This document shows, piece after piece, positions 1,267-15,447 of a stretch of DNA of 15,658 bases. The DNA is from a virus (Duplodnaviria; Heunggongvirae; Uroviricota; Caudoviricetes): the IMG/VR virus record IMGVR_UViG_2721755662_000003. One strand, 5' to 3'. The notes beneath the pieces were generated by a model. It did not search any database and was not told the origin of the DNA. It was given only the letters and a program-made list of their open reading frames with translations. Each line of letters begins with the position of its first letter. Within the stretch, counting starts at the first letter, position 1. The translations under genes were made by a program, and so were the position numbers.

Positions 1267-1310
1267 ACAACGTGCAACAATGAGCAACAATGTGGAACAA
1301 CTACGAACAA
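1267..1310 (-). repeat. Five direct repeats of ACAA (minus-strand TTGT, mostly TTGTTC/G) with exact 10-bp phasing
   Basis: atACAA cgtgcaACAA tgagcaACAA tgtggaACAA ctacgaACAA at 1267,1277,1287,1297,1307; same motif as arrays at 7899-7949 and 15383-15408. Confidence 0.65.
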
Positions 1311-1432: not shown

Positions 1433-1583
1433 TGTATTAACATGAATTTAAAAGATTTTATTCTTACTGTTTCATTTTCTGTAAATCATACATCCTCAGT
1501 ATTTGCCATTCATCACTCTAGCGGGAACAATACGACACAATAAGACACCTGATGACTCTTTAAGAAACGAAAGGGGGGCAATA

Positions 1584-2651: not shown

Positions 2652-2855
2652 ATGAGAAATCATACCACACACCCGCAAGGGCGGGACTCGCACAACCTGA
2701 ATAAATACATCTGGCGTTTTATCGCCCTGAGCACGGCACAACCGCGCGTGATTACCATTGAGGCCACCAGCGAACAGGAAGCACGCCAGCAATCTCCGGC
2801 TGGCTGCGTGATGGTATTCGCTGCCCGTATTCGCCAGGGGTCACATCATGCGTAA
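2652..2855 (+). CDS. Small protein (67 aa), possibly Icd-like/Ash-like family seen in P4-type elements; paralog of 3088-3309
   Basis: RBS gaggt 4 nt upstream of ATG 2652; C-terminal region KYIWRFIALS...IEATSEQEARQQ...VFAARIRQG mirrors second copy. Confidence 0.5.
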   Translation: MRNHTTHPQGRDSHNLNKYIWRFIALSTAQPRVITIEATSEQEARQQSPAGCVMVFAARIRQGSHHA

Positions 2856-2859
2856 AAAC

Positions 2860-3140
2860 CGCTTGCAAAAAATTATCACGGGGCTGTATGCTTCCCCCGT
2901 CGCCCACATGGCGACCGGGTTTGACAGCCTGAATACATCTGGCGGACAGCCGCCCACATCCGATAAGCGGTTTTTTTGTGTCCGTAAACCTACCCATACC
3001 CGCATTATGGCGGGGCGTAACGGGGGAGCCTTTGTGCTCGCTGGTTTCCAGATGACCAGTCTGTCAACCCTGTTACGTCTCGCCACCATGTTTGACAGCG
3101 TAGTAGCGAGACTCCTTAAAATTCATCTGGGAGCCTTTCA
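2860..3140 (+). promoter_or_regulatory. Structured leader between the two paralogous small genes: nested stem-loops, repeated GTTTGACAGC and GCCCACAT motifs, terminator-like GCGG+T7
   Basis: GGCTGT(2872)...CCCGTCGCC cacat GGCGACCGGG...ACAGCC(2930); GGCGG acag CCGCC (2932-2945); aagcgg ttttttt (2956-2967); CTGTCAA(3062)/TTGACAG(3092); GTCTCGC(3077)/GCGAGAC(3107). Confidence 0.35.
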
Positions 3141-3309
3141 CATGGCTGTATCCGCACGCCCTTATTTTGTCTGGCGCTTTATGCAGTGCCTGACAGACAG
3201 CATTGCAATATTCACCGTTACCGCTGCCACTGAGCGCGAAGCACGTGCACAGCTGCCGCACGCACATCTGATTTTTGTCGCCCGTATTCGTCAGGGGGTA
3301 GGCTTATGA
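3088..3309 (+). CDS. Small protein, paralog of 2652-2855 (start uncertain: ATG 3088 or ATG 3142)
   Basis: PYFVWRFMQCL...TVTAATEREARAQL...IFVARIRQG parallels first copy; the N-terminal half of the 153-aa track ORF is probably not coding. Confidence 0.5.
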   Translation: MFDSVVARLLKIHLGAFHMAVSARPYFVWRFMQCLTDSIAIFTVTAATEREARAQLPHAHLIFVARIRQGVGL

Positions 3310-4562: not shown

Positions 4563-4862
4563 ATGAAACTTAAATATTCTGGCTTAACTGCCAGTGGCAA
4601 CACTCACCCTAAATTTACGCGCGGCGATATTTACCGCGACCAGTACGGCGGCACGGTAATGATTAAGGGCGTGGAAGAACGGCGCGTAACCTACCGCCGT
4701 GAAGGTTACGAATATGATTGCGTGATGCCTGTTTATCAGTTCCGGCGTGATTTTTCTCTGGTACAGACCGCGCCGCATAACGTGTCCACCAGCAACGCCA
4801 GGGCACGGGCAAACATCCAGAAGCTGAAAACCATGATTAACGGATTCAGGGGTAAAAAATGA
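4563..4862 (+). CDS. Hypothetical protein (99 aa) immediately upstream of and overlapping primase start
   Basis: ORF track; stop overlaps primase ATG (ATGA). Confidence 0.5.
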   Translation: MKLKYSGLTASGNTHPKFTRGDIYRDQYGGTVMIKGVEERRVTYRREGYEYDCVMPVYQFRRDFSLVQTAPHNVSTSNARARANIQKLKTMINGFRGKK

Positions 4863-6613
4863 AACTGGCACCGAACGTAAAACAGCAGTCACGCGGCATA
4901 AAACACAAAGAAACAGAAGTCATTATTTTTGCGGGTAGTGATGCCTGGTCACACGCAAAACAATGGCAGGAACATGACGCGCGTATGGCCGGAGATAATG
5001 AGCCTCCTGTGTGGCTTGGGGAGCAGCAGTTATCCGAACTGGATAAGCTGCAAATTGTGCCGGAAGGCAGAAAATCCGTGCGCATATTCAGGGCCGGATA
5101 TCTTGCGCCAGTAATGATAAAGGCGATTGGTCAGAAGCTGGCGGCGGCAGGCGTACAGGATGCAAATTTTTACCCTGATGGTATGCACGGTCAGAAGGTG
5201 GAGAACTGGCGCGAATATCTGGCCCGTGAGCGCCAGAATCTTTCTGATGGTCTGGTCATTGAGCTTCCGGTAAAGCAAAAGGCGCAACTTTCGCAGATGG
5301 CGGACAGTGAGCGCGCGCAGCTGCTTGCCGATCGCTTTGATGGCGTTTGCGTACATCCTGAAAGTGAAATCGTTCACGTATGGCGCGGCGGGGTATGGTG
5401 TCCGGTCAGCACAATGGAACTTAGCCGCGAAATGGTGGCGATCTATTCAGAGCACAGGGCCACTTTCAGCAAGCGCGTAATCAATAACGCCGTGGAAGCG
5501 TTAAAAGTTATTGCCGAACCAATGGGCGAGCCGTCCGGCGATTTGTTGCCGTTCGCCAATGGTGCGCTTGACCTGAAAACGGGGGAATTTTCCCCGCACA
5601 CGCCGGAGAACTGGATCACCACGCACAACGGCATTGAGTACACGCCACCAGCACCAGGGGAGAACATCCGCGATAACGCGCCAAACTTTCATAAATGGCT
5701 TGAGCACGCAGCCGGAAAAGACCCGCGCAAGATGATGCGTATATGTGCCGCGCTGTACATGATTATGGCGAACCGGTACGACTGGCAGATGTTTATTGAG
5801 GCCACCGGAGACGGCGGGAGCGGTAAAAGTACATTCACACACATAGCCAGCCTTCTGGCAGGGAAACAGAACACGGTAAGCGCTGAAATGACATCGCTTG
5901 ATGATGCTGGTGGACGTGCGCAGGTTGTCGGGAGTCGTCTTATCGTCCTGGCTGACCAGCCGAAATATACAGGCGAAGGAACGGGCATCAAGAAAATCAC
6001 GGGCGGTGACCCCGTGGAAATTAACCCGAAATACGAAAAGCGTTTCACGGCGGTAATCAGGGCGGTGGTGCTGGCGACCAACAATAACCCGATGATATTC
6101 ACCGAACGGGCCGGAGGTGTGGCACGTCGTCGCGTGATTTTCCGTTTCGACAATATCGTCAGTGAGGCCGAAAAAGACAGGGAGCTACCGGAAAAGATCG
6201 CGGCTGAAATCCCTGTCATTATCCGCCGATTGCTGGCGAACTTTACCGACCCTGAGAAGGCACGGGCTTTACTACTGGAACAGCGTGACGGTGATGAAGC
6301 TCTGGCAATAAAGCAACAGACGGATCCGGTTATTGAGTTTTGCCAGTTCCTGAATTTTCTGGAGGAAGCACGCGGCCTGATGATGGGCGGCGGTGGCGAT
6401 TCAGTGAAGTACACGACCAGAAACAGCCTTTACCGCGTCTATCTGGCGTTTATGGCGTACGCAGGCAGGAGCAAACCGCTAAACGTAAATGACTTTGGCA
6501 AGGCTATGAAGCCAGCCGCGAAAGTTTACGGACATGAATATATTACGCGGAAAGTTAAGGGAGTAACGCAGACTAACGCAATAACAACAGACGAGTGCGA
6601 CGCGTTTTTATAA
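4859..6613 (+). CDS. Replication protein: P4-family primase C-terminal type (D5_N-like region plus SF3 helicase NTPase), 584 aa
   Basis: Walker A GDGGSGKST, Walker-B-like LIVLADQP, D5_N-like region LPFANGALDLKTGEFSPHTPENWITTHNGIEY; followed directly by iteron ori. Confidence 0.85.
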   Translation: MKLAPNVKQQSRGIKHKETEVIIFAGSDAWSHAKQWQEHDARMAGDNEPPVWLGEQQLSELDKLQIVPEGRKSVRIFRAGYLAPVMIKAIGQKLAAAGVQDANFYPDGMHGQKVENWREYLARERQNLSDGLVIELPVKQKAQLSQMADSERAQLLADRFDGVCVHPESEIVHVWRGGVWCPVSTMELSREMVAIYSEHRATFSKRVINNAVEALKVIAEPMGEPSGDLLPFANGALDLKTGEFSPHTPENWITTHNGIEYTPPAPGENIRDNAPNFHKWLEHAAGKDPRKMMRICAALYMIMANRYDWQMFIEATGDGGSGKSTFTHIASLLAGKQNTVSAEMTSLDDAGGRAQVVGSRLIVLADQPKYTGEGTGIKKITGGDPVEINPKYEKRFTAVIRAVVLATNNNPMIFTERAGGVARRRVIFRFDNIVSEAEKDRELPEKIAAEIPVIIRRLLANFTDPEKARALLLEQRDGDEALAIKQQTDPVIEFCQFLNFLEEARGLMMGGGGDSVKYTTRNSLYRVYLAFMAYAGRSKPLNVNDFGKAMKPAAKVYGHEYITRKVKGVTQTNAITTDECDAFL

Positions 6614-6901: not shown

Positions 6902-7180
6902 ATGCACACTTCAGGGAAATTTAATAAATCACTCAAAAAACGCAGAGACAGAACAGAACCGAAATATCGCGCGTTAGACATGACAGAGCACGCTTTAAAG
7001 GTGGCAATCAGAACGATAGACCGCCACGCGGGGGAAGGATACGCGAAAGCACATCCCGAACTGATAAGCGCATTCATGACCACGACGGCGGCAAATTTTG
7101 CCACGCTGACAGAGCGGGAGATTGCCGAAGCGGAACAGGTAACAACCATCAACGTTAAAACCGGAGAGGTGGAATCATGA
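6902..7180 (+). CDS. Hypothetical protein (92 aa), first gene of SSB operon
   Basis: SD gaggggg upstream of ATG 6902; stop overlaps ssb start. Confidence 0.5.
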   Translation: MHTSGKFNKSLKKRRDRTEPKYRALDMTEHALKVAIRTIDRHAGEGYAKAHPELISAFMTTTAANFATLTEREIAEAEQVTTINVKTGEVES

Positions 7181-7587
7181 CAGCACAGATAGCAGCTTAC
7201 GGGCGGCTGGTGGACGACCCGCAGGTAAAACAGACCAGCAAGGGTACACCGATGACGCTGGCGCGTATGGCGGTATCGCTGCCATGCAGCCAGGCACAGG
7301 ATGGACAGGCGACGTTATGGCTATCGGTCATCGCATTTGGTAAGCAGGCCGACTTCCTGGCTAAACATCAAAAAGGCGACGTTGCCAGCGTATCCGGCAC
7401 GATGCAGGTCAGCCAGTGGACCGGACAGAACGGGGAAACGCGGCAGGGTTATCAGGTTATTGCAGACAGCGTAATCAGTGCCCGTGCGGCACGTCCTGGT
7501 GGGAGCCGACGCAAGACCACAGGCACACAGGGTAATCAGCCACCAGCGGGAGGCGATGACCCTTACGGTGATGATATTCCGTTCTGA
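7177..7587 (+). CDS. ssb: Single-stranded DNA-binding protein (136 aa)
   Basis: OB-fold region similar to E. coli SSB (WLSVIAFGKQAD vs WHRVVLFGKLAE), Gly/Pro-rich linker, acidic C-terminal tip ending DDIPF. Confidence 0.85.
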   Translation: MTAQIAAYGRLVDDPQVKQTSKGTPMTLARMAVSLPCSQAQDGQATLWLSVIAFGKQADFLAKHQKGDVASVSGTMQVSQWTGQNGETRQGYQVIADSVISARAARPGGSRRKTTGTQGNQPPAGGDDPYGDDIPF

Positions 7588-7599
7588 GGGGTGGGGACG

Positions 7600-7872
7600 A
7601 TGGTACATGACCGCATAGCGGAAGAACTGGAGGCGAAAGGCTTTTACCGGAGAGCGTCGGCGCGATGGGGTGAAGTCATGCAACTGGTGGAGACAGACAA
7701 GGAACGGCATCACATCACGATGCGACGGCTGGAATGTTCCAGGAAGGCACAGAGGCCACCGGAGCCGCCGGATAACTACGGAGACCTGAAAAAGGCGGTC
7801 GATCGCACTTATGCCGAAATGGGTATGGATGGTGCTGGTAATGAAATATGGCGAAATTACCAGGACAGATAA
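7600..7872 (+). CDS. Probable PerC-family transcriptional activator (about 90 aa from ATG 7600)
   Basis: N-terminal MVHDRIAEELEAKGFYRRASARWGEVM matches my recollection of the PerC/Pch motif; SD gaggggtgggga upstream. Confidence 0.5.
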   Translation: MVHDRIAEELEAKGFYRRASARWGEVMQLVETDKERHHITMRRLECSRKAQRPPEPPDNYGDLKKAVDRTYAEMGMDGAGNEIWRNYQDR

Positions 7873-7878
7873 TCACAC

Positions 7879-7902
7879 AGCCGGAGCAATCCGGCTTTTT
7901 GT
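7879..7902 (+). terminator. Rho-independent terminator: AGCCGGA-GCAA-TCCGGCT then TTTTTGT
   Basis: 7-bp GC-rich stem, GNRA-type tetraloop, T-run immediately 3'. Confidence 0.75.
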
Positions 7903-7949
7903 CATGTTTTGTAAATTATTTGTTCGTGGTTGTTCCACGTTGTTCACTG
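7899..7949 (+). repeat. Five 10/11-bp-phased TTGT repeats (ttgtca, ttgtaa, ttgttc, ttgttc, ttgttc) upstream of the capsid operon
   Basis: TTGT at 7899, 7909, 7920, 7930, 7940; same motif as 1267-1310 (opposite strand) and 15383-15408. Confidence 0.65.
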
Positions 7950-8000
7950 AGCGGATCGGCATATTTTACCCGAACTGAATCATGATTATTCTCGCCCGTG

Positions 8001-8158
8001 GTGCCAGGACGCTGGGGCCACTTTTCCGCCTGTTAATGTTCTCGCCAATATTCATTACCAGGCGGGAAAACGATCGGTGCGATTGCTGATTTCCTTATGA
8101 AAAACGGTTGAGTTTTTGCCGCGTCCTGGAGTTCCTTACTTAACCCCAGGACTTTTTT
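8001..8158 (+). promoter_or_regulatory. Structured untranslated leader of the capsid operon: nested inverted repeats and a hairpin plus T7 run ending 2 nt before the capsid ATG; no SD
   Basis: TTTTCCGCCTG(8022-8032)/CAGGCGGGAAAA(8059-8070); CCAGGACGC(8004-8012)/GCGTCCTGG(8121-8129); TCCTGG(8124-8129)/CCAGGA(8146-8151) followed by CTTTTTTTA. Confidence 0.4.
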
Positions 8159-8159
8159 T

Positions 8160-9317
8160 ATGCCGAGAATAATCGAATTACGCCAGCAGAAAACCGCCAT
8201 TAAAAATCAGATGCGCGACATGCTGGAGAACGCGGAAAAAGAAAACCGCAGTCTTAACGATGCTGAGGGCGCAAAATTTGACGAATTACGCGCTAAAGCT
8301 GAATCCCTCGATAAAGACATTTCCCGCCTTGAAGCCATTGCAGACGAAGAGCGCAGCAAGCCAGGTAAAAGCAGTCAGACCACTGACCCAGCCGAACTAC
8401 GTCACTACATTCTGACAGGTGAAACCCGCGCATTAAGTACAGGCGTTCCCGCTGATGGTGGTTATACCGTTATCCCCGAACTGAACACCGAAATCATGCG
8501 AATGCTGACGGATGAATCCACCATGCGCCGCATCTGTACCGTGAAGAAAATCAGCAGCAACGAGTTTAAGCAGCTTGTTTCCGCTGGCGGTGCGACCGTT
8601 AACCACGGTGAAGAGGGTAAGGCACGCGAACAGACCAGCACCCCGCAGATTAACGAGGTGAGCATTAAGCTGTATCCGGTCTATGCGTACCCGCGCACCA
8701 CGCAGGAAATCGTGGATTTTTCCGATGTGGACATCCTTTCATGGCTGACGGGCGAGATTGGCGACAACTTCACGGAAACCGAAGAAAGCGATCTGGTTGT
8801 GGGCGACGGTGACAAAAAAGCAAAAGGCTTTTTATCCGTACCCCGTGCAGAGAAGAACGACAAAGAGCGTGATTTTGGTACGTTGCAGGTAATTAAACCT
8901 TCCGAATCTCTGGCGTGGACATCTGCGGACCCGCTGATCGACCTGAAATTTGCATTACGTAAAAAATACCGCAAAAACGCGGTCTGGGTGGTTAACTCCA
9001 CGACGGCGGCAAAACTTCAGAAGGTGAAGAACGCGAACGGTGATTACATCTGGCGCGACCGTTTACAGGCGGGTGATCCTGATACGTTACTGGGCCTTCC
9101 GGTCGAATATCTGGAGTTTATGCCGGATAACGTTATTGCCCTGGGTGACTTCAAACGCGGTTACTACATTGTTGATCACGAAACAGGTGTTCGCACCAGA
9201 CCGGACAACCTCACAGAGCCGGGCTTCATCAAAATTTTCACGCAGAAATATTTAGGCGGTGGCGTGGTGGATTCGAACGCGATCAAGATTCTGGAACTGC
9301 CACAGGACGACGATTAA
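8160..9317 (+). CDS. Major capsid protein, HK97 fold, with N-terminal coiled-coil delta (scaffold) domain; 385 aa
   Basis: N-terminal 100 aa charged/helical (delta-domain-like), remainder typical HK97-family MCP; same length as HK97 gp5; prohead protease gene follows. Confidence 0.9.
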   Translation: MPRIIELRQQKTAIKNQMRDMLENAEKENRSLNDAEGAKFDELRAKAESLDKDISRLEAIADEERSKPGKSSQTTDPAELRHYILTGETRALSTGVPADGGYTVIPELNTEIMRMLTDESTMRRICTVKKISSNEFKQLVSAGGATVNHGEEGKAREQTSTPQINEVSIKLYPVYAYPRTTQEIVDFSDVDILSWLTGEIGDNFTETEESDLVVGDGDKKAKGFLSVPRAEKNDKERDFGTLQVIKPSESLAWTSADPLIDLKFALRKKYRKNAVWVVNSTTAAKLQKVKNANGDYIWRDRLQAGDPDTLLGLPVEYLEFMPDNVIALGDFKRGYYIVDHETGVRTRPDNLTEPGFIKIFTQKYLGGGVVDSNAIKILELPQDDD

Positions 9318-9327
9318 CAGCATACAG

Positions 9328-9356
9328 AAGGGGCTTAAAAGCCCCTTTAGTGTTTT
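9328..9356 (+). terminator. Hairpin AAGGGGC-ttaaaa-GCCCCTT followed by T-rich tract after capsid gene (probably a partial terminator)
   Basis: 7-bp stem read directly; U-tract interrupted (TTTAGTGTTTTAT). Confidence 0.5.
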
Positions 9357-9929
9357 ATGGGTGAAAAAATTATGAAGAGTATGGAAATCCGGTCATCGGA
9401 AATCACTACCAGCGGAGCCGGTACGCTGACGGGCTACGTTGTTCGCTGGGATAAGCTTTCAGAACTGCTATGGGGGGAGTTTTACGAAAAATTCCAGCGG
9501 GGGGCGTTTACTGAGTGGCTTGCGGCGGGTAATGACGTTCGCGGCCTGTATGAGCATGACCACAGCATGTTACTGGGGCGCACCCGTTCCGGCACGCTGA
9601 AACTGGAAGAGGACGAAACAGGGTTACGCTTTGAACTGACCCCACCGGATACCAGTACAGGGCGCGACGTTATCGAACTGGTTAAGCGTGGGGACATCTC
9701 GGGGATGAGCTTTGGCTTTCGCTCCCGTAAGGATGTATGGGATACCACAACAGATCCATGCGTGCGCACCGTGCTGGTGGCGGAACTGTACGAAATTACC
9801 GTTACATCGGTACCGGCTTACCCCGATTCCGGCGTGGAGCTGGCCCGCCGTTCCCTGTATGAGCAGCACCCCGAAAAAATGCCGCGTGCGGATAATCGCC
9901 GCTGGTGGGTGGATTTAGCGGGGGTGTGA
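9357..9929 (+). CDS. Prohead maturation protease, HK97 family (start may be ATG 9372)
   Basis: Motifs YVVRWDK, GLYEHDH, GLRFEL, DISGMSFGF typical of HK97-type prohead proteases; positioned between capsid and portal. Confidence 0.85.
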   Translation: MGEKIMKSMEIRSSEITTSGAGTLTGYVVRWDKLSELLWGEFYEKFQRGAFTEWLAAGNDVRGLYEHDHSMLLGRTRSGTLKLEEDETGLRFELTPPDTSTGRDVIELVKRGDISGMSFGFRSRKDVWDTTTDPCVRTVLVAELYEITVTSVPAYPDSGVELARRSLYEQHPEKMPRADNRRWWVDLAGV

Positions 9930-15382: not shown

Positions 15383-15447
15383 TTGTGTCTATTTGTTCCA
15401 CGTTGTTTCATACAGTGCACCGAACGGTGTAGTCACTGGTGTAGTCA
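15383..15447 (+). repeat. att-proximal direct repeats: TTGTGT/TTGTTC/TTGTTT (15383, 15394, 15403) and GGTGTAGTCA x2 (15426-15435, 15438-15447)
   Basis: Read directly; lies roughly 70-140 bp inside the inferred right junction, where arm-type and Xis-type sites usually sit. Confidence 0.45.

What the first reader, a model, noticed from the sequence alone, without database searches (positions are those of the whole stretch)
8001..8160. Capsid gene has no Shine-Dalgarno and is preceded by nested hairpins ending in a T7 run 2 nt before the ATG
Immediately upstream of the capsid ATG (8160-8162) is TCCTGG-16 nt-CCAGGA followed by CTTTTTTTA (8152-8160), inside two longer inverted repeats (8022-8032/8059-8070 and 8004-8012/8121-8129). 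A terminator-like element next to the start codon of the most highly expressed structural gene suggests antitermination or RNA-structure-dependent translational control of the late operon, possibly triggered by the helper.
Basis: seen in the sequence. Interest (0 to 1): 0.55.

Follow-up and report, generated by a model that had tools for sequence, protein, structure and literature searches.

The report
Switchable terminator hairpin before satellite capsid gene
The capsid operon of this E. coli phage satellite (a capsid-forming PICI) begins with a conserved RNA leader whose last hairpin looks like a transcription terminator and also buries the ribosome-binding site. An upstream decoy sequence can pair with that hairpin and undo it, so the leader is probably an undescribed on/off switch for capsid production.

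Summary
The window is an EcCIEDL933-type capsid-forming PICI. The hairpin is real: GTCCTGG(8123-8129)/CCAGGAC(8146-8152), extendable to 11 pairs, followed by T7 (8153-8159). Three details of the finding are wrong. The T-run abuts the ATG. A weak Shine-Dalgarno (AGGA, 8148-8151, 8-nt spacer) exists and lies inside the hairpin's 3' arm. The repeats are not nested: 8004-8012/8121-8129 (9/9) uses the hairpin's own 5' arm, so the two helices exclude each other, and 8022-8069 is a separate upstream hairpin.

The leader therefore reads as three tiers:
- P1 (7998-8021): anti-antiterminator.
- Long-range helix: antiterminator and anti-sequestor.
- Terminator and SD sequestor.

Both strands of the long-range helix are invariant in 24/24 distinct leaders, including a divergent one. 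A second cf-PICI leader class, undetectable by HMM, has the same three-tier logic but no U-tract. SD sequestration is thus the shared output and termination is a class-A addition.

Prefix folding shows the antiterminator is favoured only until the 3' arm is made. The sensor is unknown. Published work shows capsids form without a helper, which argues against direct helper triggering. There is no Rfam match and no literature description. All evidence is in silico. Interest is moderate.

The parts
7879..7901 (+). Canonical intrinsic terminator (GCCGGA-GCAA-TCCGGC plus TTTTTG) ending the upstream perC/cargo unit. It isolates the capsid operon from early transcription.
   Evidence: 7 pairs, loop 4, T-tail; sequence. 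Duplicated around an extra cargo gene in EDL933.
7907..7945 (+). Conserved promoter module: TTTTGTAAATTAT followed by TTGTTC x3 at a 10-nt period. TTGTAA acts as a fourth phased repeat. Inferred binding array for the AlpA/excisionase-like regulator.
   Evidence: present upstream of all enterobacterial cf-PICI capsid genes fetched; phasing; 11 matches against 1.7 expected in the window. The same array occurs at 1275-1310(-) and 15383-15408(+).
7962..7967 (+). Putative -10 (TATTTT), 16 nt after the third TTGTTC. Implies a transcription start near 7973-7975. Inferred, not mapped.
   Evidence: Spacing and hexamer are kept in the divergent L059 although the spacer sequence differs. T(A/G)TTTA(C) sits at the same register in class B leaders.
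7998..8021 (+). P1 hairpin: outer GUGGU/GCCAC, inner CCAG/CUGG, loop GACG. Acts as anti-antiterminator by hiding the decoy CCAGGAC.
   Evidence: -15.9 kcal/mol; inner stem invariant 24/24. Class B has the same hairpin with a compensated inner stem CUCA/UGAG. The class-B covariance model aligns here.
8004..8012 (+). Decoy / antiterminator 5' strand CCAGGACGC. Its first 7 nt are identical to the SD-bearing arm at 8146-8152.
   Evidence: D1, I5; invariant in 24/24 distinct leaders including L059; chance 0.003.
8022..8069 (+). P2 hairpin (11-bp base plus 5-bp top), a spacer helix that brings P1 next to the box.
   Evidence: -20.6 kcal/mol; 8025-8066 varies as C-G, U-G, C.A and A.G, and L059 keeps the stem with a different apex. 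The equivalent P2 in class B covaries in 7 of 8 pairs.
8121..8129 (+). Box GCGUCCUGG: 3' strand of the antiterminator helix and, from 8123, the anti-SD 5' arm of the terminator hairpin.
   Evidence: invariant 24/24; pairs with 8004-8012 in the MFE of prefixes ending at 8129-8141.
8123..8152 (+). Terminator-like, SD-sequestering hairpin.
   Evidence: 8130-8145 A.C(19)/A-U(4)/U-A(1); 8129-8146 G-C(19)/G-U(4)/G.G(1); 8131-8144 G-C(23)/G-U(1).
8148..8151 (+). Weak Shine-Dalgarno AGGA, 8 nt before the ATG, inside the hairpin's 3' arm.
8153..8159 (+). U7 tract directly abutting the start codon. It is T7 or T8 and never interrupted in all class A leaders.
   Evidence: EDL933 has T8; L059 has T8.
8160..9317 (+). 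HK97-fold major capsid gene, first gene of the packaging operon.
   Evidence: PF05065, 1.5e-61; conserved N-terminus fixes the start.
7982..8089 (+). Candidate upstream ORF (35 codons, no SD) running through P1 and P2. Weak rival sensor.

Best explanation
The roughly 185-nt leader of the cf-PICI capsid (packaging) operon is a three-helix RNA switch.

OFF state, which is the equilibrium state: P1 (7998-8021) is closed. The box GCGUCCUGG (8121-8129) pairs with CCAGGAC (8146-8152). This forms a hairpin that buries the weak SD (AGGA) and, together with U7 ending at the AUG, has the form of an intrinsic terminator.

ON state: the inner stem of P1 opens. Its strand CCAGGACGC (8004-8012), a 7-nt copy of the SD arm plus two more bases, pairs with the box. 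The terminator then cannot form and the SD and AUG are left single-stranded.

The decoy is transcribed first and the real SD arm last. The antiterminator helix is therefore favoured only in the short interval before the 3' arm emerges. The outcome is set kinetically, or by a factor that stabilises or opens P1.

Shown: the sequence elements, their mutual exclusivity, their conservation, and the same logic in a second leader class.
Inferred: that the RNA starts upstream of P1 (near 7974), that termination actually occurs, and that the switch is regulated.
Unknown: the sensor.

Transcription of the leader itself is probably driven by AlpA bound to the phased TTGTTC array. This is inference.
For: 1. 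Anatomy. The 9/9 helix 8004-8012/8121-8129 overlaps the 5' arm of the hairpin 8123-8152. CCAGGAC occurs both at 8004 and at 8146 (D1, I4, I5). A complement of this length is expected in 0.3% of shuffles.

2. Folding. The full leader's MFE is P1 plus terminator at -77.5 kcal/mol, against -66.9 with the antiterminator forced. For prefixes ending at 8129-8141 the MFE contains the antiterminator helix with P1 opened, and it flips back at 8147-8153.

3. Conservation. About 360 E. coli genomes carry the leader, including the experimentally studied EcCIEDL933. In 24 distinct class A sequences both strands of the antiterminator helix and the P1 inner stem are invariant. Loops, P3 and flanks vary. The only divergent member (L059, capsid 69% identical) conserves exactly P1/decoy, the P2 stem, the box, the CAGGAC arm and the T-run. 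Bases that serve two exclusive helices are expected to be frozen. The arm used in one helix only shows G-C to G-U changes, and one pair goes A.C / A-U / U-A.

4. Independent replication. Class B cf-PICI leaders (37 distinct) are not found by a sequence HMM. They nevertheless have P1 with the same GACG loop and a compensated inner stem, a strongly covarying P2 (7 of 8 pairs), and a box (GCGCUGGUUUCACGUC). That box is complementary to P1 (GACGUGAGCCGC) and also forms the 5' arm (GGUUUC) of a hairpin holding the purine-rich RBS (GAAACC). Three of four class B leaders tested show the same transient long-range helix in prefix folds.

5. The hairpin lies in the only possible 5' UTR. The U-run touches the ATG, and a separate canonical terminator closes the upstream unit.

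6. U7/U8 is uninterrupted in every class A leader.
Against: - Everything is in silico. No transcription start, 3' end or structure probing is available.
- At equilibrium the ON helix has probability about 0. Prefix MFEs are not kinetics.
- Both strands of the long-range helix are invariant, so there is no within-class covariation for it. The class A / class B comparison amounts to two lineages.
- Homology of A and B is not significant (HMM negative; CM 14.4 bits, E about 0.6).
- One class B leader (L087) shows no transient helix.
- No sensor (protein, ligand, leader peptide) was identified.
- Class B lacks a U-tract, so termination may be incidental even in class A. U-rich spacers can also simply aid ribosome binding (background knowledge, not tested here).
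- Two natural variants (L018, L021) break the hairpin.
Confidence: 0.5

Rival explanations
1. Static damper. The hairpin and U7 form a constitutive, partly leaky terminator and SD-occluding structure. It simply sets a low basal level of capsid expression and insulates the operon. The upstream complementary 9-mer has no switching role, and P1 and P2 only stabilise the 5' end.
For: The equilibrium fold is overwhelmingly P1 plus hairpin: P = 1.0 and 10.6 kcal/mol better than the alternative. No sensor was found. The literature reports capsids made spontaneously without induction, which is compatible with leaky constitutive control. A third leader type (Gilliamella L005) also buries the start codon, with no obvious alternative helix.
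Against: It does not explain four observations. The 9-mer complementary to the hairpin arm is invariant in 24/24 leaders, including the divergent L059, while neighbouring bases drift. That 9-mer sits exactly in the loop and stem of a conserved hairpin. An unrelated-sequence leader class has the same arrangement. Chance expectation for the complement is 0.003.
Confidence: 0.22
2. Protein-mediated processive antitermination, in the style of lambda Q/N. A PICI, host or helper protein modifies RNA polymerase at the conserved promoter or at the P1 hairpin so that it reads through the U7 terminator. The alternative RNA helix is secondary.
For: The layout is a conserved promoter, then a roughly 185-nt leader, then a terminator immediately before the first late gene. 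This resembles lambda PR'-tR' and P. aeruginosa PalpB-tB. P1 is a conserved hairpin that could serve as a boxB-like handle. Several small ORFs of the island have no known function.
Against: No Q, N or other antiterminator family was detected in any ORF scanned. The island's AlpA is a 62-aa excisionase-type wHTH protein (PF05930), unrelated to the 8-helix Q-like P. aeruginosa AlpA; the PDB search gave no match to it. Class B leaders have no terminator to antiterminate yet keep P1 and the box. A helper is not required for capsid production.
Confidence: 0.08
3. Ribosome-mediated attenuation by an upstream ORF. Translation of the ORF starting at AUG 7982 runs through P1, opens it, and decides between the antiterminator and the terminator, as in trp-type leaders.
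For: A start codon lies exactly 9 codons upstream of the loop codon ACG in 27/27 class A and 37/48 class B leaders, in the same frame. In class B the ORF stops at the UGA inside P1.
Against: There is no SD before the AUG (ACCCGAACUGAAUC|AUG). 11 of 48 class B leaders lack any start there. ORF length and frame are not conserved: 35 or 44 codons, or open-ended in L059. Substitutions are mostly non-synonymous. There is no run of regulatory codons.
Confidence: 0.08
4. DNA-level element. The inverted and direct repeats (five CCWGG sites, CCAGGAC x3) are protein-binding, cos/pac or replication-origin sites rather than RNA structure.
For: Five CCWGG sites lie in about 300 nt, against 2.9 per kb in the whole window. 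Three direct CCAGGAC copies are spaced 144 and 142 nt apart.
Against: P2 in class B covaries in the manner of an RNA helix, with G-U pairs tolerated. In class A, G-C to G-U changes are strand-specific. The elements lie in an obligatory 5' UTR. The published cf-PICI description does not place cos here. By analogy with HNH-type cos phages, cos is expected next to terS (background knowledge).
Confidence: 0.03

Closest known systems
Classical transcription attenuators with anti-antiterminator, antiterminator and terminator (trp 1:2 / 2:3 / 3:4; pyrBI; bgl/sac leaders)
   Same: Three successive, pairwise-exclusive helices. The last is a GC-rich hairpin with a U-tract just before the first structural gene. 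The middle helix shares the terminator's 5' arm.
   Different: No convincing leader peptide or known RNA-binding antiterminator was found. Two large hairpins separate strands 1-2 from strand 3. The terminator's 3' arm is also the ribosome-binding site. The context is a phage satellite's capsid operon.
Riboswitch expression platforms that combine a terminator with SD sequestration
   Same: One hairpin both terminates and masks the SD. The decision is made co-transcriptionally between two alternative helices.
   Different: No aptamer was recognised: no Rfam hit for either leader class. No ligand is suggested by gene context. The conserved parts are only the switching strands.
Kinetically controlled leaders (MS2 maturation-gene 5' UTR; hok mRNA metastable hairpins). 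Recalled from the literature, not tested here.
   Same: The equilibrium fold occludes the ribosome-binding site by long-distance pairing. A transient alternative structure exists only on the nascent RNA.
   Different: Here the transient structure also removes a terminator. No experimental folding kinetics exist. There is no sequence relationship.
Lambda PR'-tR'/Q and P. aeruginosa AlpA-PalpB-tB late-gene antitermination (PMC7969949, PMC9371919)
   Same: A terminator sits between a dedicated promoter and the first late or lysis gene. A regulator called AlpA is required for expression.
   Different: The island's AlpA is a 62-aa excisionase-like protein with no Q-like nozzle domain. No Q-binding-element or pause signature could be established. 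An RNA-intrinsic antiterminator is present.

Membership tests
Intrinsic (Rho-independent) terminator | GC-rich stem directly followed by a U-tract of at least 5-7 | tested here: met
   The 7-bp stem has 5 G-C pairs and extends to 11 pairs with one mismatch. Loop 8 nt, -12.7 kcal/mol, U7 immediately 3'. It is not listed by the simple scan because of the mismatch.
Intrinsic (Rho-independent) terminator | Transcripts actually end in the U-tract | not testable with these tools
   Needs Term-seq, Northern blots or in vitro transcription.
Terminator/antiterminator attenuator | Upstream sequence able to pair with the terminator's 5' arm, mutually exclusive with the terminator | tested here: met
   8004-8012/8121-8129 is 9/9 and overlaps 8123-8129. 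Chance 0.003. Invariant 24/24. It is the MFE in prefixes 8129-8141.
Terminator/antiterminator attenuator | Anti-antiterminator that hides the antiterminator strand | tested here: met
   P1 at 7998-8021, -15.9 kcal/mol, contains 8004-8012.
Terminator/antiterminator attenuator | A sensor (leader peptide, RNA-binding protein, tRNA or ligand) | tested here: inconclusive
   The uORF is present but has no SD and is not universal. No aptamer family was found. The island's C4-like antisense RNA has no complementarity to the leader. No protein candidate was identified.
SD-sequestering translational riboregulator | SD and/or start codon paired in the stable fold and freed in the alternative fold | tested here: met
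   AGGA 8148-8151 lies in the 3' arm. The forced-ON fold leaves 8146-8162 largely unpaired. The same holds in class B with GGUUUC/GAAACC.
Lambda-Q-type / P. aeruginosa-AlpA-type processive antitermination | A Q-like antiterminator protein (DNA-binding domain plus RNA-exit-channel nozzle) encoded by the element | tested here: not met
   No such family appears in the Pfam/PHROG scans of the 22 ORFs checked. The island's AlpA is 62 aa, PF05930, and in the PDB matches only 8c3t 'AlpA family phage regulatory protein'. Pae AlpA has eight helices with DNA-contact residues up to H142.
Lambda-Q-type / P. aeruginosa-AlpA-type processive antitermination | Binding element within the promoter plus a sigma-dependent pause (-10-like) in the initially transcribed region | tested here: inconclusive
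   GATTAT at 7984-7989 is -10-like, but it is GGTTAT in L059. The transcription start is unknown.
Any described RNA family (Rfam 15) | Covariance-model match at or near the gathering score | tested here: not met
   Nothing in 7850-8250 above 17 bits. Nothing for a class B leader above 21 bits. The whole-window scan finds only C4/a1b1/isrK/symR elsewhere.
Class B cf-PICI capsid leader (defined here) | Sequence or structure-profile similarity to the class B alignment | tested here: inconclusive
   nhmmer finds nothing in the leader. The class-B CM's best hit in the window is 7998-8080, with P1 and P2 aligned in register, but at only 14.4 bits and E about 0.6.

The most novel reading that the evidence does not exclude
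cf-PICIs carry a dedicated, previously undescribed family of leader riboregulators, with at least two sequence classes sharing a decoy-SD three-helix design. These gate capsid synthesis in response to a specific trans-acting signal. One candidate signal is autogenous feedback by an unassembled capsid or packaging protein; another is a host or helper RNA-binding factor acting on the conserved GACG-loop hairpin P1. In class A, the prematurely terminated leader of about 185 nt, with its terminator hairpin and U-tail, could additionally act as a small RNA.
Probability: 0.25. Interest if true: 0.7.

Novelty: new member of a known kind. Interest (0 to 1): 0.5.

Why it matters
cf-PICIs are unusual satellites that build their own capsids and release tail-less, DNA-filled particles even without a helper. 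How capsid production is controlled has not been described in the papers I could search.

This leader gives a concrete, mutable control point at the first gene of the packaging operon. It is present in the prototype EcCIEDL933 and in about 360 complete E. coli genomes. It makes a clear prediction: decoy, box and SD-arm mutations, with compensatory changes, should alter capsid output.

If the switch responds to a factor, that would explain how a satellite times or limits capsid synthesis. It would also add a new structured RNA family to phage-satellite biology. If it is only a static damper, the finding is ordinary.

Tried and rejected
1. AlpA as a Q-like antiterminator. Rejected as a homology argument. 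P. aeruginosa AlpA is a large Q-fold protein. The island's AlpA is a 62-aa excisionase-type protein.

2. The island's C4-like antisense RNA (3003-3090) as trans-regulator of the leader. There is no complementarity of 8 nt or more to 7970-8175.

3. An enclosing 5'-3' helix 7984-7994/8164-8174 (11/11 in the window). It carries uncompensated breaks in 5 + 3 + 1 of 24 leaders, so it is not supported.

4. Known RNA families. None match.

5. Metagenome scan with GCCAGGACGCTGGG. A first viral scan used the wrong fixed spacing. The corrected scan returned only contigs already held.

6. More E. coli variants (H50-H52). They add no new changes in the switch elements.

7. The early hairpin CCCCTGTCTCTGACGGGGG plus T-run in some class B loci, first read as a leader terminator. 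It lies in the promoter spacer register and is absent from other class B leaders.

8. The leader in bona fide phages. Class A is absent from 50,697 phage records. Class B occurs in only 3 records, one of them a 16.5-kb induced prophage of satellite size.

9. PerC as the dedicated activator. Unlikely, because the gene upstream of the same promoter and leader differs between islands.
Full report
CONTEXT

The window is a capsid-forming phage-inducible chromosomal island (cf-PICI) of E. coli. Its genes run in this order:
- integrase (1-1218);
- AlpA (1584-1772, PF05930);
- D5-type primase (4859-6613);
- SSB;
- a PerC-family gene (7591-7872);
- then the packaging operon: HK97-fold capsid (8160-9317), prohead protease, portal, connectors, TerS and TerL.

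The 810 bases around the finding are 100% identical to E. coli FORC_069. They are 95% identical to the prototype EcCIEDL933 in strain EDL933. EDL933 carries the same leader with a T8 run. The leader alone (7895-8165) is present at 80% coverage or more in 360 of 5,426 complete E. coli genomes.

OBSERVATION

The hairpin and T-run are real. GTCCTGG (8123-8129) pairs with CCAGGAC (8146-8152). After one A.C mismatch the stem continues with GUU/AAC, giving 11-nt arms and an 8-nt loop at -12.7 kcal/mol. T7 occupies 8153-8159 and touches the ATG at 8160, so the gap is 0 nt, not 2.

A Shine-Dalgarno core AGGA (8148-8151) lies 8 nt upstream of the ATG. It is weak, at -4.0 kcal/mol against the 16S tail compared with -6 to -12 for most genes of the island, but it is present. 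It sits in the 3' arm of the hairpin.

The repeat 8004-8012/8121-8129 is a perfect 9/9 complement. Because 8123-8129 is also the hairpin's 5' arm, the two helices are alternatives rather than nested. The repeat 8022-8032/8059-8070 is the base of a separate upstream hairpin, P2.

The region folds far better than shuffles (z = -5.3). A complement of 9 nt or more to the arm region arises in 0.3% of shuffled upstream leaders. The start codon is fixed by the conserved capsid N-terminus in relatives.

TRANSCRIPTION UNIT

A canonical terminator (7879-7901) follows perC. Next comes a module found upstream of every enterobacterial cf-PICI capsid gene I fetched. It consists of TTTTGTAAATTAT, three hexamers phased at 10 nt (TTGTTC x3 here), 15-16 nt, and T(A/G)TTT(A/T).

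I infer a promoter with its -10 at 7962-7967 and a start near 7974. This is not mapped. Whatever the exact start, the U-run abuts the ATG, so every capsid mRNA must contain and cross the hairpin.

COMPARATIVE EVIDENCE, CLASS A

There are 24 distinct leaders of the window's type, from IMG/VR, GTDB genomes and E. coli. In all of them both strands of the 9-bp long-range helix and the inner stem of P1 are invariant. Loops, P3 and flanks vary.

The one divergent member is L059, whose capsid is 69% identical. It conserves P1 and the decoy, the P2 stem (with a different apex), the box GCCGCGTCCTGG, CAGGAC and a T8 run. Little else is conserved.

In the hairpin, pair 8130-8145 is A.C in 19 leaders, A-U in 4 and U-A in 1. 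Pair 8129-8146 is G-C in 19, G-U in 4 and G.G in 1. Two variants (L018, L021) break the stem. The U-tract is always T7 or T8.

Freezing of bases that serve two exclusive helices is the pattern expected of a switch. So is drift, with some compensation, in bases that serve only one helix. This is not proof.

COMPARATIVE EVIDENCE, CLASS B

Most other cf-PICIs (Citrobacter, Erwinia, Rosenbergiella, other E. coli islands; 37 distinct leaders) have a leader that a sequence HMM cannot relate to class A. Its architecture is nevertheless the same:
- P1, GUGGC-A-CUCA-GACG-UGAG-CC-GCCAC. It has the same outer stem and GACG loop as class A (GUGGU-G-CCAG-GACG-CUGG-G-GCCAC), with a compensated inner stem.
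- A variable P2 that covaries in 7 of 8 basal pairs.
- A box, GCGCUGGUUUCACGUC. It is complementary to P1 (GACGUGAGCCGC) and also supplies the 5' arm GGUUUC of a hairpin whose 3' arm GAAACC is the purine-rich ribosome-binding region.

A covariance model of class B places its best hit in the window on 7998-8080, with P1 and P2 in register. The score is only 14.4 bits, E about 0.6. This agrees in position but is not significant.

Class B has no U-tract before the ATG. A single Gilliamella leader also buries its start codon.

FOLDING

For the window, the full-length MFE is P1 plus terminator at -77.5 kcal/mol. Forcing the long-range helix costs 10.6 kcal/mol. For prefixes ending at 8129-8141, when the box has been made but the 3' arm has not, the MFE contains the long-range helix with P1 opened. 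It flips back once 8147-8153 is present. Three of four class B leaders behave the same way, and one (L094) keeps the long-range helix in its final MFE.

MECHANISM PROPOSED

The leader has three tiers:
- P1 is the anti-antiterminator.
- The decoy:box helix is the antiterminator and anti-sequestor.
- The box:SD-arm hairpin is the terminator and sequestor.

The decoy CCAGGAC is an exact copy of the SD arm, so strand exchange between the two is isoenergetic. The outcome should depend on timing or on anything that stabilises or opens P1.

The output shared by both classes is access to the ribosome-binding site. Class A adds a U-tract that should also terminate transcription at the start codon. Blocked translation of the first gene would be expected to reduce downstream expression through Rho polarity. 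That last step is established knowledge, not tested here.

Confidence that this switch description is essentially right is about 0.5. The sensor is unknown.

WHO TURNS THE OPERON ON

Published work shows three things. AlpA is the activator needed for PICI induction, and helpers act by inducing alpA. An alpA mutation abolishes EcCIEDL933 induction. cf-PICI capsids are made without helper phages, and alpA overexpression is used to drive EcCIEDL933 reproduction for capsid purification. Direct helper triggering of the leader is therefore unlikely.

The TTGTTC array of the capsid promoter recurs in two places. One copy lies between int and alpA (1275-1310, minus strand, four copies). The other lies at the right end (15383-15408), next to two GGTGTAGTCA repeats. 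An excisionase-type protein would be expected to bind at such positions. I therefore infer that AlpA binds the capsid promoter. This is inference only.

The attractive parallel with the P. aeruginosa antiterminator AlpA fails. That protein is an eight-helix Q-like factor, unrelated to the 62-aa protein here.

RIVALS AND DEAD ENDS

- A static damper is the main rival, at about 0.22.
- Q/N-like antitermination (0.08) lacks a candidate protein and cannot explain class B.
- A leader-peptide mechanism (0.08) has some support. A start codon lies 9 codons upstream of the loop codon in 27/27 class A and 37/48 class B leaders. Against it, there is no SD, no conserved peptide, and 11 class B leaders lack the start.
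- A DNA-level role (0.03) is unlikely given RNA-type covariation.
- The C4-like antisense RNA does not match the leader.
- Rfam has nothing for either class.
- Class A is absent from 50,697 phage records, and class B occurs in only three records.
- The 5'-3' helix 7984-7994/8164-8174 is not maintained.
- The metagenome scan was uninformative.

VERDICT

The structure is real and conserved, and is very probably a functional leader. It is better described as a terminator/antiterminator/anti-antiterminator switch that also masks a weak SD than as nested hairpins before an SD-less gene.

It belongs to a well-known kind of mechanism. As an RNA family it appears undescribed, and it sits at a biologically interesting control point. 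All functional statements await transcript mapping and mutagenesis.

Noticed in passing
window 2886-2935 and 3003-3090 (+): Rfam C4 antisense RNA (72.6 bits, E 8e-13) with its a1/b1 target module (46.8 bits). This is a P1/P7-type antisense immunity cassette inside a cf-PICI. It overlaps the mechanical ORF 2848-3309, which is therefore probably not a gene. The upstream ORF 1830-2855 has a C-terminal 'transcriptional repressor' PHROG domain.
   Followed up: partly
window 1275-1310 (-), 1525-1540 (-), 15383-15408 (+), 15426-15447 (+): Arrays of TTGTTC-like hexamers at a 10-nt period, identical in type to the capsid-promoter array. They lie between int and alpA and at the right end of the island. 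The right-end array sits beside two direct GGTGTAGTCA repeats, which resembles excisionase sites next to integrase arm sites in an att arm. TTCTGTAAATCAT at 1477-1489 resembles the promoter motif.
   Followed up: partly
L002-L004, L053-L058, L071, L074-L185 (about 230 nt upstream of their capsid genes): A second, widespread cf-PICI capsid-leader class. It has a 25-nt invariant hairpin (GTGGCACTCAGACGTGAGCCGCCAC), a strongly covarying variable hairpin, and an invariant CTGGTTTCACGTC box. There is no Rfam match.
   Followed up: yes
window 7591-7872; L336 700-924; L071 3201-3731: The slot just upstream of the capsid promoter is a variable cargo site. It holds PerC here, PerC plus a 75-aa ORF flanked by duplicated terminators in EDL933, and a ProQ/FinO-family RNA-binding protein plus a small ORF in another E. 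coli cf-PICI.
   Followed up: no
window 9327-9348 (+): A strong terminator-like hairpin (9 pairs, loop 4, T-rich tail) lies between the capsid and protease genes. This could lower expression of downstream genes relative to the capsid. The protease ATG at 9357 has almost no SD.
   Followed up: no
window 7860-8150: Five CCWGG (Dcm/EcoRII) sites lie in about 300 nt, against 2.9 per kb in the whole window. All sit in the switching strands (CCAGGAC x3, GTCCTGG, ACCAGGCGG).
   Followed up: no
window 6993-7027 (+) and 7499-7520 (+): There are P1-like sequences inside coding regions. GGTGGCAATCAGAACGATAGACCGCCAC in ORF 6902-7180 resembles the class B P1 (nhmmer E 1.3). GTGGGAGCCGACGCAAGACCAC in ssb fits the P1 pattern. 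Both are probably chance.
   Followed up: no
L186 (IMG/VR contig), leader region: A class A leader is interrupted right after GCCAGGACG, inside P1, by unrelated coding sequence. This is a natural truncation or recombination at the decoy.
   Followed up: no
L018/L184 variant of 8149 (G>T): A natural variant turns CCAGGAC into CCATGAC. It breaks both the hairpin and the SD and creates an in-frame ATG 12 nt upstream, giving MTFF-MPRII....
   Followed up: no
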